Below are positions 2,812 through 30,666 of a DNA stretch of 64,000 bases, in pieces. The position numbers and the translations under genes were made by a program. This stretch comes from a virus, in the IMG/VR virus record IMGVR_UViG_3300010401_000036, positions 3,382-67,381 of that record; one strand, given 5' to 3'. Numbering within the stretch: the stretch's first letter is position 1; each line of letters starts with the position of its first letter. The notes beneath the pieces were generated by a model. It saw only the letters and a program-made list of their open reading frames with translations, was not told the origin of the DNA and ran no database searches.

Positions 2812-3170
2812 GCCGCCCTCGCCATGGTGACGGCCTCAGACGAACCGGCTACAACGGTCGTCTTGCCCGGCAACGAATCGGCCAGTTCTCGACCCGCCAT
2901 GGTCGGCTCCATTACCACGGCCTTGACCGGAGAATCCGGCTGCTTCGCCATGGTGTCAACGACCGCAACCGCGTTCTTTTCGGTGTGGACAAACAAGCCC
3001 CATGCACCGGAAATTAGAGACGCTGCAATCGCTAGCGTCGTCGGGCTGTTGAGGACGCTGGTCACCTGGTCAATGGTGAACCATCCCTTTGCGGCGAACC
3101 ATCCTGCTACGACACCACCGAAGGTAGTAATTAACCACCTAAGACCGCTCTTTACCTGCTCCTGATTCAT
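2808..3170 (-). CDS. holin-like membrane protein
   Basis: Two TM segments; directly upstream of the endolysin; start chosen at MNQEQ. Confidence 0.65.
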   Translation of the reverse strand: MNQEQVKSGLRWLITTFGGVVAGWFAAKGWFTIDQVTSVLNSPTTLAIAASLISGAWGLFVHTEKNAVAVVDTMAKQPDSPVKAVVMEPTMAGRELADSLPGKTTVVAGSSEAVTMARAA

Positions 3171-3219: not shown

Positions 3220-5433
3220 CTAAGCGAGGCCTCTTTTTGCCTCATATGCCAACTGCAACGCACGATTGGAAGAATGAACTTTGCGACTATTAGAAACGAC
3301 ATTCCCGCCTCGTGCAAACCCGGCCGATTCCGGTTTGCTCCTGTCATTCTGATCTGCCGCGCGCACCGAAGATGTCAGGAGTTTTGGCACGGAACTCGCT
3401 ACCCCAGTAGAAACGGGACTCTGCGTGCCAAGTGCCACGTTATTAGCAACGCGCCTCAGTCCGTCCATTATGGCCTTGTTCTTCATGGCCAGATCCAAGC
3501 CCTTGCGCATCTGGGTAAGGTCATTGGATGTCAACAGATCGGCGACATAGGAGGCGGTTTTGCTATCGACGCGCCCCATGATTTTCCGGGCGCCCATGGC
3601 CGCGAGATCGCCAGCGTATTTCTTGGCGGCAAGACTACCTGCCAATGATCCGCCAGCTACGTGCTTCCAGTCCCATCCGCTCTCGTACCCGCCAACAAGC
3701 CCACCAGCCAAGCCCGCCTCGATAAGCTGCTTCGCAGTGGTCGAATTGCCCATCGCATTCTTGGCGCCCTGCATGATCGTTTCGAGCGTCATGCGAGCCT
3801 GCATCTTGTTGAGCCCGTCCTGTCCGAACACGGCCAGTGCTCGAGCCCGCTCGTTCGGAGAATTGAACATCGCCTTGGTGATATCGCGGGTGTCGCTGAT
3901 ATTCTTGATGACGCGATCTGCCCAGTCTGAGGCGTAGCCTTCGCGAAACAGATCCTTTTCGTCTGGCTTCATCTGGCGCATGACATCGATGATCTGCTTC
4001 GGATCGACCTTTTTCCCCGCGAGTTTTTGACCAGCCTCAAGGGCATTGCTTTCATTGAAATATTGCGACGCAATACCCCTGGCACTGCCATACGAAGGCA
4101 CGGCCTTGTCCAGTTCGCTACGGAGTGACTTCGCCAAGGTACCCGCGACCGACGACGTATCGCCCTGCCTCTTGGCCACACTGGCCATGCTGTCAAGCTC
4201 GCGCTTCACCGAGTCCCAATATTGCAGGTTCGGATACTGTGGGACCCCAGTTGGCTTAGTCTTGGTGAATTTGATCATGCCGTCTTCGACGGTCACGCCC
4301 GGATTGAAGGCCCCGTATCCTTCGGAAATCGCGCGGTCCTTCCCCGTCGTGACGGCACGCTTCATGGCATCTTCAAAGGCCGGACTCCCCATCAGCCTTT
4401 CGATGGTGGGGGAAATGATTTCGCGATCCCCCTCCTTGAAGGCCTTGGCATAGGCTGGTACCCGGCCAGCATCATATTCGGCGACGATCTGGTCTGAGGT
4501 CTTCCCAGCGTTTGCTCCACCAGAGACGAGATCCTTCACATCCTTGGCAACGCGCTCGCTTTGACCGAGGAATCGTTCGTTGAATGTGTTCTCAAGCTTG
4601 GCCCACGCTCCAGGATCGGTATTCCCGGCCGAACGCAATAGTGCCTGCGTCTTGCCGGCACCGAGGTCAGCCAACGTCACTGGCTCGCCAGCGCGCTTTG
4701 CTGCCAGCCAGTCTGCTGCTGTCATACCCTTGGCTTCGCCAGCCGCGATGGCCTCTTGGTCGCTCATGAGCGCTGAACCAAGACGGCGGGACGCTTCGGC
4801 TTCAGGGTCTTTCCAGCCTCTAAAGGCTCCAATGGCCTTTCCGACAACGGGACCGAGAACGGCACCAATGGCTTGGAAGACGCCCGCACCAGCACCGCCT
4901 CCAATGCCGCCGGTAACGGCACCTGAGCCAGCTCCGATAGCCCGCTCTGAGGCATCAGTACCCGCCCCGGCCCCAGCCAGCGCGCCATATTCAGCCCCGA
5001 CCTGAGCGCCCTTCAGAGCCGGCCGCAATAGCGCCGGAGCTCGAGCCATTCCAGCTTCTGGCAGAACCGCCATGGTAGGAATCGCGCCCGCAACTTCACT
5101 GGCGCCATAGACATAAGGGTGCTGGGTTCGTGCCGTTTCATCTGCGGCACGTTCGCGGGCTATCGATTCGTTGTACCGCTGCACAGCCTCCGGATCACCA
5201 GTCCAGTATTTGTAGGCACCCTTGATGCTGGTCAGGGGCGTCCCTGGGTCTGTAGGGCTTGCTCCACCAGCCTCGTCGATCGCCCGCAGCTCGTCAGCAA
5301 ACCCGAACGTCGCACCCTGCAGCGCGCCGCGGCCGGCAGCAGTCAGCTTGCCAACATCAGGCGCGGCTTCACCAGTAGCCCAATCAGGCGCCGACGCACT
5401 ATCCGCAGTTGCCCAGTCCGGCGCATCGGTCAC
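3220..5433 (-). CDS. internal virion / DNA ejection protein
   Basis: 737 aa, Ala/Gly-rich helical protein (RGALQGATFGFADEL-type N-terminus) at the end of the morphogenesis module. Confidence 0.7.
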   Translation of the reverse strand: MTDAPDWATADSASAPDWATGEAAPDVGKLTAAGRGALQGATFGFADELRAIDEAGGASPTDPGTPLTSIKGAYKYWTGDPEAVQRYNESIARERAADETARTQHPYVYGASEVAGAIPTMAVLPEAGMARAPALLRPALKGAQVGAEYGALAGAGAGTDASERAIGAGSGAVTGGIGGGAGAGVFQAIGAVLGPVVGKAIGAFRGWKDPEAEASRRLGSALMSDQEAIAAGEAKGMTAADWLAAKRAGEPVTLADLGAGKTQALLRSAGNTDPGAWAKLENTFNERFLGQSERVAKDVKDLVSGGANAGKTSDQIVAEYDAGRVPAYAKAFKEGDREIISPTIERLMGSPAFEDAMKRAVTTGKDRAISEGYGAFNPGVTVEDGMIKFTKTKPTGVPQYPNLQYWDSVKRELDSMASVAKRQGDTSSVAGTLAKSLRSELDKAVPSYGSARGIASQYFNESNALEAGQKLAGKKVDPKQIIDVMRQMKPDEKDLFREGYASDWADRVIKNISDTRDITKAMFNSPNERARALAVFGQDGLNKMQARMTLETIMQGAKNAMGNSTTAKQLIEAGLAGGLVGGYESGWDWKHVAGGSLAGSLAAKKYAGDLAAMGARKIMGRVDSKTASYVADLLTSNDLTQMRKGLDLAMKNKAIMDGLRRVANNVALGTQSPVSTGVASSVPKLLTSSVRAADQNDRSKPESAGFARGGNVVSNSRKVHSSNRALQLAYEAKRGLA

Positions 5434-19703: not shown

Positions 19704-19949
19704 CTATTTCCTGCGCGGCTTGTCTGCCCTCTGGCTTACGCAGCCGCCCTCCATCTTCATCTCAATGCTTGGAAACTTCCGGTGCACCTTGGCTTTGACC
19801 TTGGCTTTGAGTGCTGGAGACCCGTGCTGCGAAACCCGCGCCAGCGCATTTCTGGCGTGACTCTTGTCTTCCACCGGATAACTGCGGTCAGGCCCGGCAA
19901 AATCCTTTGTCGGGATTTTCTTCCGGGCCTTGGCCGTCAGCTTGGTCAT
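19704..19949 (-). CDS. small basic virion-associated protein
   Basis: R.YPV.DK.HARNALARV motif typical of small phage head-region proteins. Confidence 0.7.
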   Translation of the reverse strand: MTKLTAKARKKIPTKDFAGPDRSYPVEDKSHARNALARVSQHGSPALKAKVKAKVHRKFPSIEMKMEGGCVSQRADKPRRK

Positions 19950-23721: not shown

Positions 23722-24324
23722 TCACAGGATACCCGTGTTACCCTGGCGCTGGAGCGAGTTGTTGAAGCCGACAATGACCCAGTTGTAGTTCGTGGTTGGG
23801 TCAGAGCCGTTGCCAACGCCCGGGTAGAGCTGGAGAACCTTGAACGGCATGAGAGCCGCGGACGAGATCGAGGCGAAGTCGATCGTGTAACTCGAGAAGC
23901 CGCCGCCAACCGTGGTGCCGCCGGCCCCGGTCGTGAACCCGATGTTGTTGCCGATCGCCGTGGCTGGGATAGCCGTCAGGAGCGCTGCGACCTTGAACAT
24001 GGCGTTGGGCGCGTCGATCACATAGGCCGTGGAGTCGGCGCCTGCGGCCGCTGCGGGATACCAGGGAAGCCAACCGGGGACGCCGCCCTTCGGGGTATAC
24101 TGGCAACCTTGGAAAATACCGATAAGGCCGGTGGAAACGCTGGAGCCGGAGGTGCAGGGCTGGATGTAGGGACCGAGGGATGCCGACTTCTGAACTGCGT
24201 CACCGAAGAAAATGGCGGTCGCGTAGGTCGACTGGATCTGGTACTTGGACAACTGGTAGTCGGGAGCCCCGCCCGGCAGGTAGCCGAAGTGCGCGAAGCC
24301 GAACTGCGCTTGGGTGTTAGCCAT
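23722..24324 (-). CDS. capsid-associated structural protein upstream of MCP
   Basis: MAN..A.FG, Y.TAIF.GD.V, G.F.GC.Y, AYVID.PN motifs typical of the gene preceding this MCP type. Confidence 0.75.
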   Translation of the reverse strand: MANTQAQFGFAHFGYLPGGAPDYQLSKYQIQSTYATAIFFGDAVQKSASLGPYIQPCTSGSSVSTGLIGIFQGCQYTPKGGVPGWLPWYPAAAAGADSTAYVIDAPNAMFKVAALLTAIPATAIGNNIGFTTGAGGTTVGGGFSSYTIDFASISSAALMPFKVLQLYPGVGNGSDPTTNYNWVIVGFNNSLQRQGNTGIL

Positions 24325-24482
24325 GACAAGCCCTTGACTTTTAAGGCCTCGTCCAGCGCTTGCCGGGGTGCGATTGCCAGAAAGTCACAACGGCTTGTTG
24401 CGACAGAATGCCAAGGGACGATCTATCGTCTCGCTTGGCCGCTCAACCTCCTGCCACTGGCTGGAGGGAACTGAATTTCGGC

Positions 24483-24511
24483 AAAATGCTAGATAAATCA
24501 GAGAATGTCAA
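24483..24511 (-). promoter_or_regulatory. putative sigma70 promoter for the capsid genes
   Basis: Minus strand TTGACA-N17-CATTTT in the intergenic region. Confidence 0.45.
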
Positions 24512-24690
24512 GTGGGTGTGGACTGCTCAAAGCATCTCAGAGCTGCCGCTGCTGGGCCCGGGACACTGTTTGCATAAATCCAGCGTCTAATAGTGGAAGT
24601 GTCGACTTCAAGGGCGGCAGCCATCTTTGTCTGCCACCCTCGATTACCATATAGCTTCTGACCTATAGAGATAAGTTCCTTAGCCGTCAC
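24508..24690 (-). CDS. small HTH DNA-binding protein coupled to ro60
   Basis: GTG start overlapping the 3' end of ro60; WQTKMAAALEVDTSTIRRW helix-turn-helix. Confidence 0.7.
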   Translation of the reverse strand: MTAKELISIGQKLYGNRGWQTKMAAALEVDTSTIRRWIYANSVPGPAAAALRCFEQSTPT

Positions 24691-25984
24691 GTTCGACCTC
24701 GTGAACGAAGCGCAACACACCTTCAGAAAACCCATCAATGTGGGTCCAAGCCCCATACCCAACGCCGTTCTTGTTCGACGCGACGTTGATCATATAGCCC
24801 TTGGCGAAAGCGTTTGGCACCGCATCGTGGCTCTGTTCGTCCGTGATGACGATCAATCGGTCAGCCCTCACATTGGCATTGATCCACGCCACCGCCGCGC
24901 CAAGATTGGTGCCGTTATGAGGCTGAGACCGCACAATAGCATCAACGCCAGCCATACCCCGTCGCGGGGGTACCTCAACAATTCCATCCGAGAACGTGAA
25001 TAGCCTAATATCGCCTGGAATTATCGCGCCCAACGCCGCAGCCGCATCGATCCGCCTCATGTCCGATTTCTGCGACAATGCCCAATCCATCGATCCGGAC
25101 ACATCGACCATCACCACAGTTTTTCCGAGATAGACAGGAAGTTCCGTGATTGCCTCGCAAAGCGCCTGATCAAGATATGGCTCAAACTGTGGAGCAGCCC
25201 TCGCCGCTGCGACGTAGCGGAAGGGAAACACTCGCTGCGCTCCGCCCTGCCGTGCTACAATTGCCTGCCGAACCAGATCGCTATCGACGCCAGCAGCCGC
25301 CATATTACGCAGGTTTCGGAGTAGCGCCAGATAGCCGATCCCGCTCTCGCGTAATAGCCGCTCGAAAGTCTCTCGCTTGTCTTTCCCGCCGGAAAGCGCG
25401 ACCTCCCAAGTGTCGGGAATCTTAAGCGTGCGATCCTTCACCCTCTTCCATAGAGCCGACTGCTCGTCATTGGCCGGCTTCGGCCGAGCAATTCGCAAAA
25501 CGTCGCGAAGCTTCACGGCCCCGTCTCGATCGTACTTTCCGAGTTGGTATTCGTCGAACTTGGCGAAGGCCTGAGCAAGACCCTTGCGCATCTGCCGTGG
25601 TACGCTCTTACGGCCGTTGCGCCAATAGACGGTCAGAAGCTCTCCCATCTCATCGGCGCGGGAGATCACTCGTGCCGTGGTGTCCGCCATCATCGCAGGC
25701 CCGGTCTTGCTGAGGATATCGAGCAAAAGCAGGGGGACATGCCGCAGGTTGAACACTTTGCGCGCCTCGATCGCCAGCGCCGCTAATTCGGCCGGCTTCA
25801 CCAGCGCTGCGGTTTCGGCGATTCGCTCAGCAATAGATTTGCCATCCTCGTAGAACTCGTTTTCCCACAATAGGCATGATAACACCGATCGGCGCAGTTG
25901 TTCGATCGGCTTGAGGCGACCGAAAGCCGGCGCTCCTTCAGTGGTCTTGGCGGTATTTTTCGGGGAAACATTCAAACGGGCCAT
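24680..25984 (-). CDS. rsr: Ro60 / TROVE-domain RNA-binding protein (Rsr-like)
   Basis: T.EGAPA, LLWE..FYE.G, FDEYQL.KY, TWE..LS, ALLRNLRN, PFR...A, and vWA MIDAS VDVSGSM...VITDEQ. Confidence 0.93.
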   Translation of the reverse strand: MARLNVSPKNTAKTTEGAPAFGRLKPIEQLRRSVLSCLLWENEFYEDGKSIAERIAETAALVKPAELAALAIEARKVFNLRHVPLLLLDILSKTGPAMMADTTARVISRADEMGELLTVYWRNGRKSVPRQMRKGLAQAFAKFDEYQLGKYDRDGAVKLRDVLRIARPKPANDEQSALWKRVKDRTLKIPDTWEVALSGGKDKRETFERLLRESGIGYLALLRNLRNMAAAGVDSDLVRQAIVARQGGAQRVFPFRYVAAARAAPQFEPYLDQALCEAITELPVYLGKTVVMVDVSGSMDWALSQKSDMRRIDAAAALGAIIPGDIRLFTFSDGIVEVPPRRGMAGVDAIVRSQPHNGTNLGAAVAWINANVRADRLIVITDEQSHDAVPNAFAKGYMINVASNKNGVGYGAWTHIDGFSEGVLRFVHEVERDG

Positions 25985-26020
25985 CAGTATTCTCCCATGG
26001 CCTCACGGCTGCCTGCCGAA

Positions 26021-26175
26021 TGATCTAAGTGAGACTGAGCAAGTGACGAAATCAGTACATTTCAGTGCTCTACCACTGAGCTACCGGGACTTCTCCCGAG
26101 TTGGATTCGAACCAACGACCCCTGGCTCCAAAAGCGAAGTAACTGATTTCTGCAGCGTCAATCCCACTTAGATCA
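26021..26175 (-). ncRNA. yrlA: YrlA-type Y RNA with circularly permuted tRNA-like domain
   Basis: Ends pair (UGAUCUAAGUG/CACUUAGAUCA); inside, T-arm GUUGG-UUCGAAU-CCAAC, closed acceptor-like hairpin UCGGGA-GAAG-UCCCGG, then D-arm GCUC-AGUGGUA-GAGC; 36 nt upstream of ro60. Confidence 0.88.
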
Positions 26176-26275
26176 ACAACGGAAACTAGCAAGTAGCGAG
26201 AACGGGATATGGCCACTTAAGGCCGCTCTATTGCGAAGAAGTATCCGTTACTCTGCAGCGTAGTTTCCGTTGTTG
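26174..26275 (-). ncRNA. second Y-RNA-like hairpin
   Basis: 15-bp terminal stem CAACAACGGAAACUA/UAGUUUCCGUUGUUG; shares CGCUGCAG, UACUUC and ACUUGC with the YrlA-like RNA. Confidence 0.75.
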
Positions 26276-26341
26276 CCCGGCAAGCAACGAACTCAGCATC
26301 ATCGTTTCAAGAGAAGTAGCTGAGCCCTTCAGCGCGGGCAA
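26273..26341 (-). ncRNA. third, minimal Y-RNA-like hairpin
   Basis: Terminal stem UUGCCCG/CGGGCAA; same core CGCUGAAG...UACUUC...GCUUGC. Confidence 0.7.
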
Positions 26342-26344
26342 ATC

Positions 26345-26374
26345 ATATATCGTGCATTATGCGCGGTTTGTCAA
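26345..26374 (-). promoter_or_regulatory. putative sigma70 promoter for the Y RNA-ro60 unit
   Basis: Minus strand TTGACA, ~17-nt spacer, GATATAT, ending a few nt before the first Y-like hairpin. Confidence 0.6.
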
Positions 26375-26378
26375 TAAC

Positions 26379-26402
26379 AAAAAGCCGCCCCGAAGGGCGG
26401 CA
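26379..26402 (-). terminator. Rho-independent terminator
   Basis: Minus strand GCCGCCC-TTCG-GGGCGGC-TTTTT after the Ig-like gene. Confidence 0.85.
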
Positions 26403-26419
26403 GTCGCGGGAAAACCCCC

Positions 26420-26737
26420 TTAGCTGACGGTCGCGAGGATCTGAATGCTGGTGAGGACCTGTGGCGCCGCCTCCACCGTCACATCGATCAGTCCCTTGAA
26501 CTCGACACCTCCCACGGTAACGGCCACGTTGACCGTGTCGCTGCCGGCCGCAATGGCGAGTTCGCTTGCGGTCAGGCCGCTCGTGGAAGGCGTCAGAGTG
26601 CCGGTTTCGGGGTTGACGTCGGACCATACCGGAGGCGAATCCGGGGTCGGTGTGGTCTGCATCGGATTACCATTCTGGTCCAGAAAGATAATCGCGAAGT
26701 CGACTTTGTGGCCTACGGTGAGGGTTACTGCGCTCAT
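26420..26737 (-). CDS. Ig-like domain protein
   Basis: All-beta pattern (VTLTVG, DQNGNP, PVWS, G...V.V.V, IDVTV); AAGGA RBS before MSAVTL. Confidence 0.65.
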   Translation of the reverse strand: MSAVTLTVGHKVDFAIIFLDQNGNPMQTTPTPDSPPVWSDVNPETGTLTPSTSGLTASELAIAAGSDTVNVAVTVGGVEFKGLIDVTVEAAPQVLTSIQILATVS

Positions 26738-26930
26738 GTGGATAATCCTTTGATGGCGGTGGTGATGGTGACGCGGGCGTATAATGGCGATCAGCAAGAC
26801 GCTTGTCAGTCTTTGGTGACGATGCCGCATCTTGTACCTGCTGAAATTGACGTGGCCTAACAAACCGACAAGCGTATAGTTCCGACAGATGAATACCATG
26901 GAGAGATGACAATAAAAAGGCCGTTAAAAA

Positions 26931-27009
26931 TGGCTCCTCGGGGCAGATTTGAACTACCGACCTTCAGACCGTTTCCGATCCGATGCTCTAACCGCTGAGC
27001 TACCGAGGA
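26931..27009 (-). tRNA. tRNA-like RNA with Asn-like acceptor stem and no canonical anticodon loop
   Basis: UCCUCGG/CCGAGGA-G-CCA acceptor, canonical D and T arms; anticodon arm UCGGA-UCGGAAACGG-UCUGA (10-nt loop, or 8-bp stem with GAAA tetraloop). Confidence 0.85.
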
Positions 27010-27012
27010 ATA

Positions 27013-27088
27013 TGGCGCCTCTGGCAGGATTTGAACCTGCGACCAGCCGAGTTAGAATCGGCCGCTCTACCAACTGAGCTACAGGGGC
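27013..27088 (-). tRNA. amber suppressor tRNA (anticodon CUA)
   Basis: GCCCCUG-UA-GCUC AGUUGGUA GAGC-G-GCCGA UU[CUA]AC UCGGC-UGGUC-GCAGG UUCAAAU CCUGC-CAGAGGC-G-CCA; one C4:A69 mismatch. Confidence 0.9.
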
Positions 27089-27097
27089 TTGACCTTG

Positions 27098-27478
27098 TCA
27101 CTTTAGGAGGGGCAATCCTTTCGTGATTGATTTGGCTTCATTGCGGGGAAGGGGTCCGATGCCGATCGCAGTGACTATTTGCGAACCATCGAAGTGCGGC
27201 GGCATGACGTGATTTTCCTCAATCACCATGGCACATGGCAGCTTAGCAAGCTTAGCGCGGTGGAAAAGGTCGCACAGCTCGCGCTCGCCGGGGACGGTCA
27301 GAACAATCTTGGTGCCGCCATCTTCAAGATAGGCCGCTGTGTTCTCTGGAGGGGCTGTAAGAAACGAATCAAGAAATGCATGGCCGGCTTGGGAAGCCGC
27401 TTTGCCAGATGTCATTTCTAGGTCTTCACGGATAATCGCATATGCAACAGGCTGATTTGAATGGTCAATCTAACGCAT
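27098..27478 (-). CDS. pth2: peptidyl-tRNA hydrolase type 2 (Pth2) with in-frame TAG at codon 3
   Basis: AYAIIREDLEMTSGKAASQAGHA, KIVL.V, VTAIGIGP, ITKGLPLL are Pth2 motifs; AAGGA-N8-ATG CGT TAG lies in the same frame, 21 codons above the ORF-track ATG. Confidence 0.85.
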
Positions 27479-27500
27479 TGATATCGTCCTTGGGTGAGGC

Positions 27501-27535
27501 TCCTGTAGGGCGAAACATAGCGTCGCCCTACAGGA
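27501..27535. repeat. perfect 13-bp inverted repeat upstream of pth2
   Basis: TCCTGTAGGGCGA-N9-TCGCCCTACAGGA with no U tract on the minus strand. Confidence 0.7.
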
Positions 27536-27548
27536 TTGCAAGTGGAAA

Positions 27549-28313
27549 TTACGCCGCCGGCAGCATTGCAATCTGAGCTGCGTCCATGGGCGCCACAGGC
27601 GCCATCTGTTGCTGGGCCTGAGCCTCCACAACGTCGAGATACCGGCCGGCATAATCGAACGGACCGACATGGCTCATGCGGTGCCCGATGTTGGCCCACA
27701 CCGACCCGCCGCACTGGCCCCACCGAATGCAGAATGACAGATCCTCGGAGATCAGGCCGCGGTCAGGCACGTCCATCTTTTCGAACAGTCGGAGAAGCCG
27801 ATTCGTTCCTGCTTGGCGCAATGTTTCGCCGGCCGGGTGCAGGGTCAACCGGGTGTCGATCAGCTCTGGAAACTTCTCGACCATAGCGGCGATCGCGTCG
27901 CGCCTGATCAGAGTGACACCGAAACCCACTCCTTCGACCCTCATGAAATCACCGCGGCGCTCCGTAAGTGGCGTACCACTGCCAGACCCAGCCCACGAAA
28001 GTGGCATTTTGCGTTGAGGGTAGATGGTACCGACGATCGGCTCGTTGAACATCAGCATGTCGGTAACCAACTCAGGCGGCCAGCCCATATCGCTGTCGAT
28101 AAAAAGGATGTGGGTGCTATTCGGAAGCGTATCGTACCAAATTGTCAGAGCCATCGACCGCAGTTCAGCAATATCCGGGAATGACAGAGTTGAGATCCCC
28201 CCGCCGATTCCCTTGCTCATCAAATGTTGACGAAGCGCGTGGGTGCTTAAAAATGTCGTCGCCGTGATAATCTGGCCAAATGCTGGAACAAAAATGAAGA
28301 TGTCGGTAGCCAT
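27549..28313 (-). CDS. GT-A fold glycosyltransferase
   Basis: THILFIDSD (DxD), GVGFG..LIRR, SEDLSFC.RW...GG.VW, HVG. Confidence 0.8.
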   Translation of the reverse strand: MATDIFIFVPAFGQIITATTFLSTHALRQHLMSKGIGGGISTLSFPDIAELRSMALTIWYDTLPNSTHILFIDSDMGWPPELVTDMLMFNEPIVGTIYPQRKMPLSWAGSGSGTPLTERRGDFMRVEGVGFGVTLIRRDAIAAMVEKFPELIDTRLTLHPAGETLRQAGTNRLLRLFEKMDVPDRGLISEDLSFCIRWGQCGGSVWANIGHRMSHVGPFDYAGRYLDVVEAQAQQQMAPVAPMDAAQIAMLPAA

Positions 28314-28840
28314 TATGAGGTCCTTCCATATTCCTTGTGAAGCCTGAGTGATGCTGTAACGTAAGCCGCATGAGCCTGTTCGGCCGTATCGAACATTCCG
28401 AGGTGTATTTCTTCGCCATCCGACTGGATAGTGGCTCGGAAACTGTTCTTATAGTCTCGTGTTACACCCTTGAATCCAGTGCTATTATCACATCGCCTCT
28501 TTCGATTCTTGGCGTTGTTAGCAGGGCTGCATTTTCTCAGGTTATCGATCCTATTGTCATCCCTATCGCAGTTTATGTGGTCAACCAACTCAGGCGGCCA
28601 CTCACCATGAACATAGAACCACGCCAACCTCGCTGCAGCATATCGGCGATTATTGATCGCTATTTGACGATAGCCTCCGCTATCAAGTCGGCCTGCAATG
28701 CATCCCTTTTGTTTTGGCATATATTTTGATGGATTTTTCCAAATAAAAATCCCAGTCTTTGGATCATAGTCCAAAAAATACAAAATTTCTTCATGCGTCA
28801 CTAAAGAGTTTGGCTTTCTCATCGCGGCATTCGGCTCCAA
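28313..28840 (-). CDS. HNH-AP2 homing endonuclease
   Basis: YDPKTGIF.W, VDHINCDRDDNRIDNLR, N.TGFKGV, HLGMFDTAEQAH.AY. Confidence 0.92.
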   Translation of the reverse strand: MEPNAAMRKPNSLVTHEEILYFLDYDPKTGIFIWKNPSKYMPKQKGCIAGRLDSGGYRQIAINNRRYAAARLAWFYVHGEWPPELVDHINCDRDDNRIDNLRKCSPANNAKNRKRRCDNSTGFKGVTRDYKNSFRATIQSDGEEIHLGMFDTAEQAHAAYVTASLRLHKEYGRTS

Positions 28841-29499
28841 AAGATATCTGTACTTTCTCTGGACCGCTCCAGAGCCTCATTTAGGATCAAAGCATAGTCT
28901 CTTGGAATGTTGAAATCTAAGGGAGACTGCCGGTGGACTAAATTAATTTCATTGTCCCATAGATAATAGCTATTCCAATATTTTTCCTTACCTAAAAGGC
29001 CATCGATCCTCTCCGAGTCAAACCGGAGGTATTCAACAAACGGATATTTACTAATAAATCTCAATTCTTGGCCGACTATCCACACGATCCATCTATGGTG
29101 GTGATACCCATAGAATGGCGGCGATCCGCCATCTACGCCGCGACCCAGCTCAGCGATTGGTGAGGGGCATTCAATGTACCCAGCGTTGCCAACCCGAGAC
29201 ATCTCCTTGATAAGGAGGAATGGGTTGTACATGTCCTCAAGCGTGTGGCGGCAGAAGACGAAATCGAACTCCTTGTCTGCAAACGGAAGTGGCTGCGTAC
29301 CGAGATCCACCTTGATCAGGTTGTCCACCCCAGGAACGTCCACAAAGTCAACGTAGACGTCCGCTCGCTTGAATGGCGCGTGGCCGGGCCCGACTTCCAG
29401 CACTCTTGCGTCTTTCGGGATGACTGTTTCGGTGAGGTAGTCCATGACGGACTGAATAGGAGCCCAATGCTTCTTGTCGTTTTGGGTGAGAGCCATCAA
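28819..29499 (-). CDS. class I SAM-dependent methyltransferase
   Basis: VLEVGPG, LPFADKEFDFVFCRHTLED..NP...KEMSRV. Confidence 0.85.
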   Translation of the reverse strand: MMALTQNDKKHWAPIQSVMDYLTETVIPKDARVLEVGPGHAPFKRADVYVDFVDVPGVDNLIKVDLGTQPLPFADKEFDFVFCRHTLEDMYNPFLLIKEMSRVGNAGYIECPSPIAELGRGVDGGSPPFYGYHHHRWIVWIVGQELRFISKYPFVEYLRFDSERIDGLLGKEKYWNSYYLWDNEINLVHRQSPLDFNIPRDYALILNEALERSRESTDIFWSRMPR

Positions 29500-29508
29500 A
29501 AAGTCCTG

Positions 29509-30666
29509 TCAGAGAAATTCAGCGTGATCTGGCATCTTCGTTGTGGGAAAGTCTACCTTCCCTTCTTTCCAATCGAATAGCCATTGGTTCGTGTGGGTTT
29601 GCAAGCACTGGGTGCCACAGCGATCCCGAGGGTCGAACTGATCACTGGCGAGATAGCGCACCATTTCCCAGTATCTGTCACTGGCGAAGATGTCTCTGAA
29701 TCGCGTGCTGACGATCGAATCAACATGGAATTTCTTGAACTTCTCGTTGAAGTGAAATCCGCAGCTCGTGATGAGGCCATTTCCGCTCATCTGAAGCTGG
29801 AAGGGAACGCCAAGGCATCGGCTGTAGTGCCGCTTGCCTTCATCAGCCAGCCGCGCCCATTTCACCACGACGCGGAACGTATCATCACCCATCTTCTCGA
29901 CTTCTCGGAAGGTGTCGTACAGAGCGTCGTACTTCTTGTAATCGACGCCAAGGTGACCCTCATCGTTATCGCTGCAATGCTTGTAGATCAGATACCCGGG
30001 CCTGATCTCCTGCGCCAGCTTAGCCAGCGGCATGATCTGATCATGGAACTGTGGCATTGTGACCATCTGCATGTTCACGACGCACGGCAGGTTATCGCGG
30101 CGCACGATTTCCATAGCGTCCTTGACGTTCTGGATAACCTGCCAGTAGTCCCGCTCCTTGAGGCCCATAATCTCCTTGTAGCGCGGCATCTCACCGGCCG
30201 AGAAGTTGAACCTCAGATAGGTGATGTGCGGAAGGATGCGCTCCAAAACCTTTTTCTTGAGCCGCACTCCGTTCGTTCCGATGCCGATCTTGATGCCGAG
30301 CTTGGCGGCGTATTCGATTGACTCCTCGTACCACGGCACAACCGTCGATTCGCCGTCGCTGATGAGACTGATGCCCTTGACGCCGATCTCAGCGGCATCC
30401 TCCAAAAACTCGAATGCGTGCTTCTTGGTGATCTCTCCGCCATCCTCAGAAGCCTGCATCGTCGCGAAACAAAAAACGCACGCCGCATTGCACTTTCGCG
30501 TCCACGCTACGTCCATCGTGACCGGGGCTATCCGCTCACCACGATCCCACGCCAGAACGCGATCTTTCCACCAGCCGACTTTGCTAGCATCAAGAATAAG
30601 ATCATTGACCGAGATGGTGGGAGACCCGGTGACGACGTGATCAAAGAACTCCGGTAGATTGCTCAT
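29509..30666 (-). CDS. radical SAM / SPASM-twitch protein
   Basis: CNAACVFC (CxxxCxxC), I.TNG, C-terminal C.......Q.SGNG....C and C...C. Confidence 0.9.
   Translation of the reverse strand: MSNLPEFFDHVVTGSPTISVNDLILDASKVGWWKDRVLAWDRGERIAPVTMDVAWTRKCNAACVFCFATMQASEDGGEITKKHAFEFLEDAAEIGVKGISLISDGESTVVPWYEESIEYAAKLGIKIGIGTNGVRLKKKVLERILPHITYLRFNFSAGEMPRYKEIMGLKERDYWQVIQNVKDAMEIVRRDNLPCVVNMQMVTMPQFHDQIMPLAKLAQEIRPGYLIYKHCSDNDEGHLGVDYKKYDALYDTFREVEKMGDDTFRVVVKWARLADEGKRHYSRCLGVPFQLQMSGNGLITSCGFHFNEKFKKFHVDSIVSTRFRDIFASDRYWEMVRYLASDQFDPRDRCGTQCLQTHTNQWLFDWKEGKVDFPTTKMPDHAEFL

What the first reader, a model, noticed from the sequence alone, without database searches (positions are those of the whole stretch)
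26931..27009. tRNA with the anticodon loop replaced by a GNRA-capped helix
Seen in sequence: acceptor stem (UCCUCGG/CCGAGGA, G73, encoded CCA; tRNA-Asn-like), D arm and T arm are intact. The anticodon arm folds as an 8-bp stem (UCGGAUCG/CGGUCUGA) closed by GAAA, with no 7-nt U33 loop. A clean tetraloop looks selected rather than decayed. Inference: a non-decoding tRNA mimic. It could be an uncleavable decoy for host anticodon nucleases or tRNA-sensing defences, an aminoacyl carrier for non-ribosomal transfer, or a Ro60/Pth2 partner.
Basis: partly seen in the sequence, partly recalled or inferred. Interest (0 to 1): 0.8.

Follow-up and report, generated by a model that had tools for sequence, protein, structure and literature searches.

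The report
Phage tRNA with sealed anticodon arm
A phage carries a tRNA-shaped RNA whose anticodon loop has been replaced by a closed helix, so it cannot read codons; it belongs to a conserved family that sits beside a peptidyl-tRNA hydrolase gene which itself seems to need a special suppressor tRNA to be translated.

Summary
On the minus strand at 26931-27009 lies a full tRNA cloverleaf whose anticodon arm is an 8-bp helix closed by GAAA. It is not a decayed gene or an assembly error. Searches found 29 distinct relatives (window included) with the same 8-bp helix and GNRA cap but quite different stem sequences.

The only recurrent neighbour is a PTH2-type peptidyl-tRNA hydrolase gene. It lies directly upstream on the same strand in 11 of 28 loci. 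An amber-suppressor tRNA(CUA) lies within 3 kb in 9 of 28.

An unexpected point: these PTH2 genes have an in-frame UAG two to seven codons after the start. In other loci a four-base codon sits there, matching a neighbouring tRNA with an unusual anticodon loop. Translation of PTH2 therefore appears to be unlocked by the co-encoded recoding tRNA.

The Ro60 gene nearby has its own YrlA-like Y RNA, so this RNA is not the Ro60 partner.

The function is inferred, not shown. I think it is most likely a translation-inert tRNA body that works with, or buffers, PTH2. Six literature searches found no description of it.

The parts
26931..27009 (-). X: tRNA-shaped RNA with intact acceptor, D and T arms. 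Its anticodon arm is an 8-bp helix capped by GAAA. G73 and CCA are encoded.
   Evidence: Sequence; Rfam tRNA 51.3 bits; MFE cloverleaf, z = -3.94; 28 further distinct relatives with covarying helices.
27013..27088 (-). R: tRNA with anticodon CUA (amber suppressor) and a normal 7-nt loop UUCUAAC. It lies 3 nt upstream of X. G73 and CCA are encoded.
   Evidence: ARAGORN; Rfam tRNA 69.9 bits.
27098..27478 (-). PTH2-type peptidyl-tRNA hydrolase gene read from ATG 27478-27476 through the in-frame TAG to the stop at 27100-27098. The ORF callers start it only at ATG 27415.
   Evidence: Pfam PF01981, E = 3.5e-15. The translation shows the conserved first strand AYAIIREDLE upstream of ATG 27415. That stretch aligns to residues 5 onward of the solved Pth2 chain 2zv3.
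27470..27472 (-). In-frame TAG at codon 3 of PTH2 (ATG CGT TAG ATT ...), presumed to be read by R.
   Evidence: The same layout is seen in 15 further PTH2 genes.
26384..26401 (-). Terminator-like hairpin followed by a T run after the 159-aa ORF; the probable end of the PTH2-R-X-ORF159 transcription unit.
   Evidence: a consensus scan only.

Best explanation
X is a real, selected tRNA-shaped RNA that cannot decode. The anticodon loop has been removed and the arm sealed by a stable tetraloop. The parts that tRNA-processing and acceptor-end enzymes read (acceptor stem, T arm, D arm, mostly CCA) are kept.

In this phage X is the third part of a small accessory cassette that close relatives of the phage lack:
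1. PTH2, a peptidyl-tRNA hydrolase of the archaeal/eukaryotic type, whose reading frame carries UAG at codon 3.
2. R, a tRNA(CUA) that should read that UAG and so unlock PTH2.
3. X.

Mechanism, all inferred:
- The three are transcribed together, and RNase P and 3' trimming release R and X.
- PTH2 is made only at the low, R-dependent rate. X is therefore in excess over PTH2.
- X binds PTH2 through its acceptor/T-arm as a deacylated tRNA body. It acts as a translation-inert ligand that buffers the hydrolase or directs it.
- Because X has no anticodon loop it neither miscodes nor can be cut by anticodon nucleases.

My odds: X is a selected non-decoding tRNA mimic, about 0.9. X, PTH2 and R form one functional cassette, about 0.8. 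X acts specifically as a PTH2 ligand or buffer, about 0.3.
For: Structure:
- The cloverleaf with the capped helix is the MFE fold.

Family:
- A pattern that did not demand pairing gave 154 rows, and the number of pairs in the N8/N8 arm was bimodal. 29 rows had 8 of 8 pairs, 10 had 7 and 8 had 6; the remaining 107 had 5 or fewer and were mostly ordinary tRNAs or fragments.
- In the 29 distinct members, all 8 helix pairs change on both sides and 94.4% of cells are paired. The covariation score is 0.786 against 0.202 in shuffles and at most 0.214 when the partners are slid.
- Four copies found through the protein alone, not through the RNA pattern (window, L103, L104, L109), all have 8 bp and GNRA with unrelated stem sequences.

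Linkage:
- A PTH2 HMM hits directly upstream on the same strand in 11 of 28 loci. These include both PTH2 subfamilies, which are about 30% identical.
- PTH2 is the only recurrent family among 139 neighbouring ORFs in Pfam, NCBIfam and PADLOC.
- L323 and L381 have PTH2 followed by tRNA-likes capped with UUCG or CUUG.

Cassette:
- The 18 closest relatives by head protein (L023-L040, of the 80 loci kept from at least 599 pattern matches) show no tRNA in the stretches fetched. None of the 80 loci has a tblastn hit to PTH2, ORF159 or Ro60.

Gating:
- There is an in-frame TAG 2-7 codons after ATG or GTG in 16 PTH2 genes. A tRNA(CUA) lies in the fetched DNA of 14 of the 16.
- Six further genes need a +1 step at a 4-base codon that matches the loop of the neighbouring tRNA.
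- The region between the TAG and ATG 27415 aligns to the first strand of solved Pth2 structures.

Discriminator base: X has G73 in 7 of 8 loci of the main PTH2 subfamily and A73 in 5 of 5 loci of the divergent subfamily. This could reflect shared descent alone.
Against: - No experiment or RNA data exist, so expression, processing, charging and binding of X are unknown.
- Members for the covariation count were chosen for at least 6 of 8 pairs, so the helix statistics are partly circular.
- 17 of 28 loci have no PTH2 beside X. Several of these contigs are too short to tell, but the Smithella-type bacterial copies clearly sit in unrelated chromosomal contexts.
- Five phage records with a gated PTH2 and R have no 8-bp-capped X among the 30 best-scoring of 87 matches that I inspected. 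Only one of the five records is complete.
- The three cultured phages whose gene starts I read (Phosso, Atu_ph07, XacN1), and Astolliot and Xoo-sp13, where I saw only the annotation, have a protein gene after PTH2 and no X.
- Nothing shows that PTH2 binds deacylated tRNA tightly or needs restraining.
- The UAG might instead end a 2-codon mini-ORF, with re-initiation at the ATT that follows in 6 of the genes.
Confidence: 0.35

Rival explanations
1. X is a decoy for host proteins that act on the acceptor end or elbow of tRNAs, such as toxins that acetylate, nucleotidylate or pyrophosphorylate tRNA 3' ends, or RelA-type sensors of uncharged tRNA. X soaks them up without disturbing decoding, while PTH2 clears N-blocked aminoacyl-tRNAs.
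For: - X keeps the acceptor, T and D arms, and 13 of 29 members encode CCA.
- The cassette is an accessory insert in a phage, as counter-defence genes often are.
- Iyer et al. 2021 (PMC7824862, passages read) place phage PTH2 among RNA-repair and ribosome-rescue functions.
- That Pth detoxifies acetylated aminoacyl-tRNA is recalled knowledge. A search listing (PMC9241777, title and abstract start only) is in line with it.
Against: - Such toxins are catalytic, so a decoy present in matching amounts helps little.
- No defence-related family recurs next to X.
- The idea does not explain the tight and constant position of X just after PTH2.
Confidence: 0.2
2. X is charged with an amino acid and acts as a codon-independent acceptor of nascent peptides on stalled ribosomes, as a minimal tmRNA or a 'macromolecular puromycin'. 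The resulting peptidyl-X is then hydrolysed by PTH2.
For: - PTH2 sits next to a true tmRNA in L107.
- In L260 and L268, tRNA-likes with long inserts occupy the place of X after PTH2.
- The bacterial subgroup (L116, L172, L193) has G3:U70, A73 and CCA. From textbook knowledge this suffices for AlaRS, as in tmRNA.
- The link between tmRNA and Pth function is recalled, not looked up.
Against: - None of the 11 PTH2-linked members in the alignment has G3:U70. Their acceptor stems are diverse, so charging without an anticodon is doubtful.
- Cap lengths in PTH2-linked relatives vary: 8 bp, a 24-nt or 28-nt arm, and a long rod in L260. This speaks against a precise fit in the ribosomal A site.
- No Rfam tmRNA family matches L260 or L268.
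Confidence: 0.15
3. X is only a processing or punctuation signal, or a 3'-end stabiliser, for the PTH2 or R transcript. Its anticodon was disabled so that the by-product cannot miscode.
For: - X starts 7-11 nt after the PTH2 stop codon, or 2-3 nt after R.
- tRNA-like processing signals are known elsewhere (recalled).
Against: - A real tRNA (R) lies beside X in most cassettes and already offers an RNase P site, so X is redundant for that purpose.
- From established knowledge, RNase P needs only the acceptor/T minihelix. Yet the D arm and a long anticodon helix are conserved and covary.
Confidence: 0.1
4. X is the Y-RNA-like partner of the phage Ro60 protein.
For: - Ro60 (TROVE plus vWA domains) lies 950 nt downstream.
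- A weak YrlA match of 30.5 bits spans R and X.
Against: - That match is below the gathering score of 69. It is what any tandem tRNA pair gives to a circularly permuted tRNA model.
- A better YrlA-like RNA (43.4 bits, E = 1.6e-7) with a 13-bp terminal stem sits right before Ro60.
- In 19 other Ro60 loci, X's only alignments were five of 12-20 nt with E between 0.011 and 0.70, which I take as chance.
- In the Pfam tally of 139 ORFs flanking the 28 loci, TROVE matched one protein only, the window's own.
Confidence: 0.03
5. X is a decaying tRNA pseudogene, a sequencing artefact, or a frameshift-suppressor tRNA with a 10-nt anticodon loop.
For: A single sequence could be read as a 5-bp stem with a 10-nt loop. 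ARAGORN forces a 7-nt loop on it.
Against: - All four stems are intact.
- The three inner pairs are standard pairs in 85 of 87 cells and vary on both sides.
- Independent contigs from many samples share the design.
Confidence: 0.02

Closest known systems
tmRNA tRNA-like domain
   Same: A tRNA-shaped RNA without an anticodon that works on the translation apparatus. In one related locus (L107) a tmRNA sits beside PTH2.
   Different: X has a full D arm and a capped anticodon helix. It has no mRNA-like part, no tag frame and no pseudoknots. The window copy has C3-G70, not G3:U70. ARAGORN and Rfam give no tmRNA call.
YrlA / bacterial Y RNA (Rfam RF02553)
   Same: A tRNA mimic carried by phages and bacteria. 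One lies in this same window next to Ro60.
   Different: YrlA is circularly permuted: its ends form the Ro60-binding stem and the acceptor-like stem is closed. X has normal tRNA topology with free 5' and 3' ends, and it occurs without Ro60.
Type III toxin-antitoxin RNAs (ToxI-type)
   Same: This is an idea only: a small structured RNA encoded beside a protein whose activity it may hold in check, with the RNA in excess.
   Different: X is single-copy in most loci and lies downstream of the protein gene. It is tRNA-shaped. There is no evidence that PTH2 is toxic or that it processes X.
Non-proteinogenic or irregular tRNAs (for example tRNA-Other of Bacillus cereus, and the irregular tRNA polycistrons in Mukai et al. 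2016, PMC5389517, section 16 read)
   Same: tRNA-derived RNAs that may be charged but are not used in decoding. Some are encoded beside suppressor-type tRNAs.
   Different: Those described keep an anticodon loop. No capped anticodon helix and no PTH2 linkage are described in the section I read.
Laboratory UAGA-type quadruplet suppressor tRNAs (for example PMC4764823, seen in search listings only)
   Same: The R tRNAs of L105 and L268 have 8-nt loops containing UCUA, opposite a UAGA in the PTH2 leader.
   Different: This concerns the neighbouring R tRNA, not X. The cases here are natural and appear dedicated to a single gene.

Membership tests
tRNA (RF00005) | Cloverleaf with acceptor, D and T arms that scores above the Rfam gathering score | tested here: met
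   51.3 bits against 29.
tRNA (RF00005) | 7-nt anticodon loop with U33 and a three-base anticodon | tested here: not met
   The arm is 8 bp plus GAAA. The Rfam alignment skips the loop. The inner pairs covary in the relatives.
YrlA / Y RNA (RF02553) | Match at or above the gathering score, with a terminal stem formed by the 5' and 3' ends | tested here: not met
   Only a 30.5-bit match spanning two tandem tRNAs, with the stem positions unpaired. The true YrlA-like RNA is at about 26021-26173.
tmRNA | tRNA-like domain with G3:U70, plus a tag reading frame and pseudoknots | tested here: not met
   The window copy has C3-G70. The gene is 79 nt. ARAGORN calls no tmRNA and Rfam gives no tmRNA match.
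tRNA pseudogene | Broken stems and no conservation of the defect in relatives | tested here: not met
   94.2% of cells are paired across 24 pairs in 29 sequences. The capped helix is conserved with changes on both sides.
Expanded-anticodon-loop (frameshift suppressor) tRNA | 5-bp stem with an 8-10-nt single-stranded loop | tested here: not met
   The three extra pairs are standard pairs in 85 of 87 cells, with GC, AU, CG and UA all present. True expanded-loop tRNAs occur next door in other loci.
Type III antitoxin RNA | The RNA binds and inhibits the neighbouring protein, which is toxic alone | not testable with these tools
   Only gene linkage is known.
PTH2 (PF01981), for the neighbouring gene | Pfam match above the cut-off and alignment to solved Pth2 structures over the whole fold | tested here: met
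   56.7 bits against 23. Chain 2zv3, E = 5.8e-15, query residues 11-121.

The most novel reading that the evidence does not exclude
The cassette is a self-contained RNA-protein system for peptide release. A dedicated recoding tRNA (amber or quadruplet) acts as the key to PTH2. X is charged and accepts nascent chains from stalled ribosomes without any codon, and PTH2 then frees the peptide. This would be a release or rescue pathway built from a tRNA without an anticodon, alongside the first natural gene switches that use four-base codons.
Probability: 0.12. Interest if true: 0.95.

Novelty: new variant of a known kind. Interest (0 to 1): 0.85.

Why it matters
tRNA mimics are known, among them tmRNA, Y RNAs and viral tRNA-like ends. 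A family of otherwise perfect tRNAs whose anticodon loop is deliberately sealed, and which is tied to a peptidyl-tRNA hydrolase, is not described in any paper my six searches found.

It matters in four ways:
- It gives phage PTH2 genes a candidate RNA partner, and so a handle on their function.
- It gives a purpose to 'orphan' phage suppressor tRNAs. The XacN1 authors wrote that they could not find target genes for theirs (PMC5852040, passages read). XacN1's own PTH2 has an ordinary start, so this does not explain their case.
- It offers apparently natural examples of four-base decoding used as a gene switch.
- It has practical use for annotation. Gene callers start these PTH2 genes about 20 codons too late, and tRNA finders mislabel X; here ARAGORN calls it tRNA-Pro(CGG).

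Sinorhizobium phage Phosso is a cultured phage with the UAG-gated PTH2, so the gating can be tested at the bench.

Tried and rejected
Searches that led nowhere:
- Megablast of window 24000-30000 against GenBank phages: no match.
- Exact-pattern scans built on the window's own D and T arms: none, or only chance or other hits (L022 lies in coding sequence, and L021 is a different tRNA-like with a long insert).
- Ro60-based loci (19 loci): none has X or any other gene of the cassette. Ro60 is a separate mobile gene.
They share the radical SAM, methyltransferase and ORF254 genes but lack the cassette.
It returned none of the known members, so it cannot give unbiased frequencies of cap length. It did show other cap types.
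- The covariance model R1 does not separate X from ordinary tRNAs, which score 60-70 bits. I therefore inspected hits by ARAGORN and folding.
- A scan for other in-frame TAGs in conserved genes of the window found none in the part covered by relatives. The one candidate at 19704-19706 is an ordinary stop that the relatives share.
- Neighbours of X copies without PTH2: nothing recurrent or telling.
- RNA runs: no RNA holder was listed.

Ideas considered and dropped:
- That the 8-bp-plus-GNRA arm is a fixed-length, built-in codon-anticodon mimic for an empty A site. It is weakened by PTH2-linked relatives with 24-nt and 28-nt arms and with long rods.
- That archaeal-type Pth2 attacks formyl-Met-tRNA and is therefore toxic in bacteria. 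This is recalled only, and my search did not retrieve support.

Not seen: supplements of the papers were not opened. Those of PMC5389517 and PMC5852040 may list irregular tRNAs that bear on the novelty claim.

Full report
1. THE OBSERVATION

The window is most of a 67,381-base IMG/VR virus record, rated complete by CheckV.

On the minus strand, 27009 to 26931, the sequence reads as follows:
- acceptor stem UCCUCGG, then UA;
- D arm GCUC-AGCGGUUA-GAGC, then A;
- UCGGAUCG-GAAA-CGGUCUGA;
- AGGUC;
- T arm GGUAG-UUCAAAU-CUGCC;
- CCGAGGA, G, CCA.

Rfam's tRNA model scores 51.3 bits against a gathering score of 29, but it has to skip the loop. The minimum-free-energy fold is this cloverleaf with an 8-bp helix and tetraloop, with z = -3.94 and 0 of 200 shuffles as good. 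ARAGORN forces a shifted stem and calls the gene tRNA-Pro(cgg). Automatic annotation would therefore mislabel it.

2. SURROUNDINGS IN THE WINDOW

All features below are on the minus strand, listed in the direction of transcription:
- ORF254;
- PTH2 (Pfam PF01981);
- a tRNA with anticodon CUA at 27088-27013, called R here;
- X, 3 nt further on;
- a 159-aa ORF with no family match;
- a terminator-like hairpin at 26401-26384;
- a YrlA-like Y RNA, with core at 26124-26061, 43.4 bits and E = 1.6e-7. This is below the gathering score of 69. It has a 13-bp stem formed by its two ends at about 26173 and 26021;
- Ro60, with TROVE and vWA domains, at 25984-24680.

R and X are the only two tRNA-type genes in the window. 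The weak YrlA match that spans R and X (30.5 bits) is what a permuted-tRNA model gives on any tandem pair of tRNAs. Ro60 has its own Y RNA.

3. RELATIVES OF X

Ro60 loci and head-protein loci:
- 19 Ro60-based loci share only Ro60 with the window and have no X.
They show a large phage group with the radical SAM, methyltransferase, ORF254 and head genes in the same order. None of the 80 has a tblastn hit to PTH2, ORF159 or Ro60, and the 18 closest (L023-L040) have no tRNA.
- The cassette is therefore an accessory insert.

PTH2-based loci:
- L103 has PTH2 at 83% identity, followed 7 nt later by a tRNA-like with arm CUUGGCUA-GUAA-UAGCCAAG.
- L109 has PTH2, then tRNA(CUA), then a tRNA-like with CCUCGGCC-GCAA-GGUCGGGG.
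- L104 has GCUUGCCA-GCAA-UGGCGAGC after PTH2.
- These copies were found through the protein, not through the RNA. With the window, that makes 4 of 4 with 8 bp and GNRA and unrelated stem sequences.

Pattern scans:
- I scanned with a pattern that fixes only parts of the D arm, a GNRA at the right spacing, and GGTC. It does not demand pairing.
- Counting pairs between the two N8 blocks gave a bimodal result over 154 rows: 29 rows with 8 of 8, 10 with 7 and 8 with 6. The remaining 107 had 5 or fewer and were mostly ordinary tRNAs or tRNA fragments.
- 36 distinct sequences had 6 or more pairs. I dropped 7 as ordinary or truncated tRNAs (L117, L131, L166, L202, L236, L244, L214). That left 29 distinct members from 28 loci.

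Covariation on the alignment:
- 94.2% of cells are paired, against 63.7% in shuffles.
- All 8 pairs of the capped helix change on both sides.
- The covariation score is 0.786, against 0.202 in shuffles and at most 0.214 when the partners are slid.
- Caveat: the members were chosen for pairing, and the D stem and GNRA were fixed by the pattern.

Other features of the 29 members:
- Caps: GAAA 11, GCAA 11, GUAA 3, GAGA 2, GUGA 2.
- Acceptor stems are diverse.
- Discriminator: A in 18, G in 8.
- CCA is encoded in 13.

Bacterial subgroup: a set from Smithella-type genomes (L116 group, L172), and L193, has G3:U70, A73 and CCA with an alanine-tRNA-like D arm. It sits in ordinary chromosomal contexts.

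4. LINKAGE

An HMM of PTH2 run on six-frame translations finds the gene directly upstream of X on the same strand in these loci:
- the window;
- L145;
- L103 (the same phage as L112 and L200);
- L109 (the same as L111);
- L147, L168 and L224;
- L133 (the same as L191);
- L178, L223 and L215.

That is 11 of 28 loci, and L104 adds one more. X begins 7-11 nt after the stop codon, or 2-3 nt after an intervening R.

Further points:
- L323 and L381 have PTH2 of the divergent subfamily followed by tRNA-likes with a 28-nt arm capped by UUCG and a 24-nt arm capped by CUUG.
- L260 and L268 have tRNA-likes with long inserts in that place. L107 has a tmRNA before PTH2.
- Among 139 ORFs within 2.5 kb of X, PTH2 is the only recurrent family.
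- A tRNA(CUA) lies within 3 kb of X in 9 of 28 loci.

5. THE GATE ON PTH2

The callers start the window's PTH2 at ATG 27415. The conserved first strand of the fold (AYAIIREDLE) lies upstream of that, and it aligns to residues 5 onward of the solved Pth2 chain 2zv3. No ATG, GTG or TTG lies between it and the preceding in-frame stop. That stop is a TAG, preceded by ATG CGT and a purine-rich stretch.

UAG type:
- The layout is a start codon, then 1 to 6 codons, then TAG.
- It recurs in the window, L145, L103, L104, L106, L107, L108, L109, L147, L168, L191, L224, L260, L262, L343 and the cultured Sinorhizobium phage Phosso. That is 16 genes.
- A tRNA(CUA) is present in the fetched DNA of 14 of them. 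It is absent from the fetched DNA of L107 and L133/L191.

Four-base type: in six other genes the start codon is in another frame, and a +1 step at a four-base codon leads into an open PTH2 frame (script check). Each leader is listed with the loop of its neighbouring tRNA:
- L105: ML[UAGA], loop CCUCUAAU.
- L268: MTS[UAGA], loop AUUCUAAA.
- L223: MNL[AUGC], loop CUGCAUAA.
- L178: MNS[AUUC], loop CUUGAAUAA.
- L323: MTTPSS[GUAU], loop CGAUACA.
- L381: MNSS[CUAU], loop GUAUAGA.

Because the codon and the anticodon change together, chance is an unlikely explanation. My rough estimate is a few per cent per case.

Other cases:
- L215 is unresolved.
- Agrobacterium phage Atu_ph07 has an in-frame TGA, with no tRNA(UCA) among the 24 tRNAs I sampled.
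- XacN1 has an ordinary start.

In the window, no other conserved gene is interrupted by TAG in the part that relatives cover. PTH2 therefore looks like R's only clear client there.

6. WHAT X DOES

This section is inference.

The anticodon end is dispensable and variable: 8 bp in most, longer in some. The acceptor/T/D body is kept. X therefore works through proteins that read the tRNA body, not through decoding. This, together with the diverse acceptor stems, argues against a fitted A-site role and against one fixed amino acid.

A pure processing-signal role is unlikely, because R already offers an RNase P site next door and because the D arm and helix are conserved.

The constant partner is PTH2. 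Its translation is throttled by recoding, so X should outnumber it. I therefore favour X as a translation-inert tRNA-body ligand of PTH2, acting as a buffer or guide, at about 0.3. The rivals are:
- an acceptor-end decoy, 0.2;
- a charged peptide acceptor, 0.15;
- a processing element, 0.1.

Against any obligate X-PTH2 tie:
- 17 of 28 X loci lack PTH2 nearby; some of these contigs are short.
- The bacterial copies have unrelated neighbours.
- Large phages with a gated PTH2 have no X that I could find.

7. COMPARISON AND NOVELTY

X passes the tRNA model but fails the defining anticodon loop. It fails the tests for YrlA, tmRNA, pseudogene and expanded-loop tRNA (see the membership table).

Six full-text searches found no description of a capped-anticodon tRNA family, of its link to PTH2, or of recoding-gated PTH2. 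What I read in the papers:
- Iyer et al. 2021 (passages) note PTH2 in jumbo phages and guess at ribosome rescue.
- The XacN1 paper (passages) reports suppressor tRNAs without known targets.
- Mukai et al. 2016 (section 16) describe other irregular tRNAs.

Supplements were closed.

8. VERDICT

X is a real feature under selection and belongs to a new family of tRNA mimics. It is part of an unexpected three-part cassette. Its function is open but testable.

Noticed in passing
window 27470-27478 (- strand); also L103, L104, L106-L109, L145, L147, L168, L191, L224, L260, L262, L343, L418: PTH2 genes carry a conserved in-frame TAG 2-7 codons after the start, upstream of the conserved first strand of the fold. 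A tRNA(CUA) is encoded nearby in 14 of the 16 genes. Gene callers start these genes about 20 codons too late.
   Followed up: yes
L105 2934-3327, L268 2443-2815, L223 1725-2082, L178 1857-2217, L323 1368-1719, L381 1550-1886: Six PTH2 genes need a +1 step at a four-base codon (UAGA twice, AUGC, AUUC, GUAU, CUAU). Each codon matches the unusual anticodon loop of the neighbouring tRNA. These are apparent natural quadruplet decoding switches.
   Followed up: yes
window about 26021-26173 (- strand), core 26061-26124: A YrlA-like Y RNA (43.4 bits, below the Rfam gathering score) with a 13-bp terminal stem lies directly upstream of a phage Ro60 (TROVE plus vWA) gene at 24680-25984. Related Ro60 loci show similar tRNA-like pieces just upstream.
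   Followed up: partly
L417 (Agrobacterium phage Atu_ph07, MF403008.1) and L418 (Sinorhizobium phage Phosso, PV764938.1): Two cultured jumbo phages have gated PTH2 genes. Phosso has ATG AAG TAT TAG plus two tRNA(CUA). Atu_ph07 has an in-frame TGA after six codons, and no tRNA(UCA) was seen among the 24 tRNAs sampled.
   Followed up: partly
L215 6233-6313; L260 about 1229-1367; L268 about 2822-3050; L021 about 3830-3930: Other tRNA-likes in which the anticodon arm is a longer capped helix (10 bp plus CUUG) or a long insert. Two of them (L260, L268) sit in X's place after PTH2. No Rfam tmRNA match was found in L260 or L268; L215 and L021 were not put through that search.
   Followed up: partly
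L116, L152, L233, L238, L243, L246, L172, L193: Bacterial (Smithella-type and other) copies of the capped tRNA with G3:U70, A73 and CCA. These should be chargeable by AlaRS. They sit in ordinary chromosomal neighbourhoods without PTH2.
   Followed up: partly
L272, L275, L277, L283, L291, L313, L339, L342, L354, L362, L371: A separate group of phage tRNA-likes with an 18-19-nt anticodon arm, of the type CCAGGGG-AAGG-CCCUUGG (7 bp plus a 4-5-nt loop).
   Followed up: no
window 29509-30666 (- strand) and L115 90-1028: A radical SAM protein with matches to prokaryotic viperin models (PADLOC pVip, NCBIfam viperin family), followed in the window by a methyltransferase. It is conserved in relatives of the phage.
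   Followed up: no
window 28313-28840 (- strand): An HNH homing-endonuclease gene lies between the conserved methyltransferase and ORF254, close to the accessory cassette. Similar HNH genes occur at other positions in relatives.
   Followed up: no
L003 4162-4453 and L107 2365-2714: Phage-encoded tmRNAs: an alphaproteobacterial two-piece type inside a 28-tRNA array near Ro60, and a standard type directly before PTH2.
   Followed up: no
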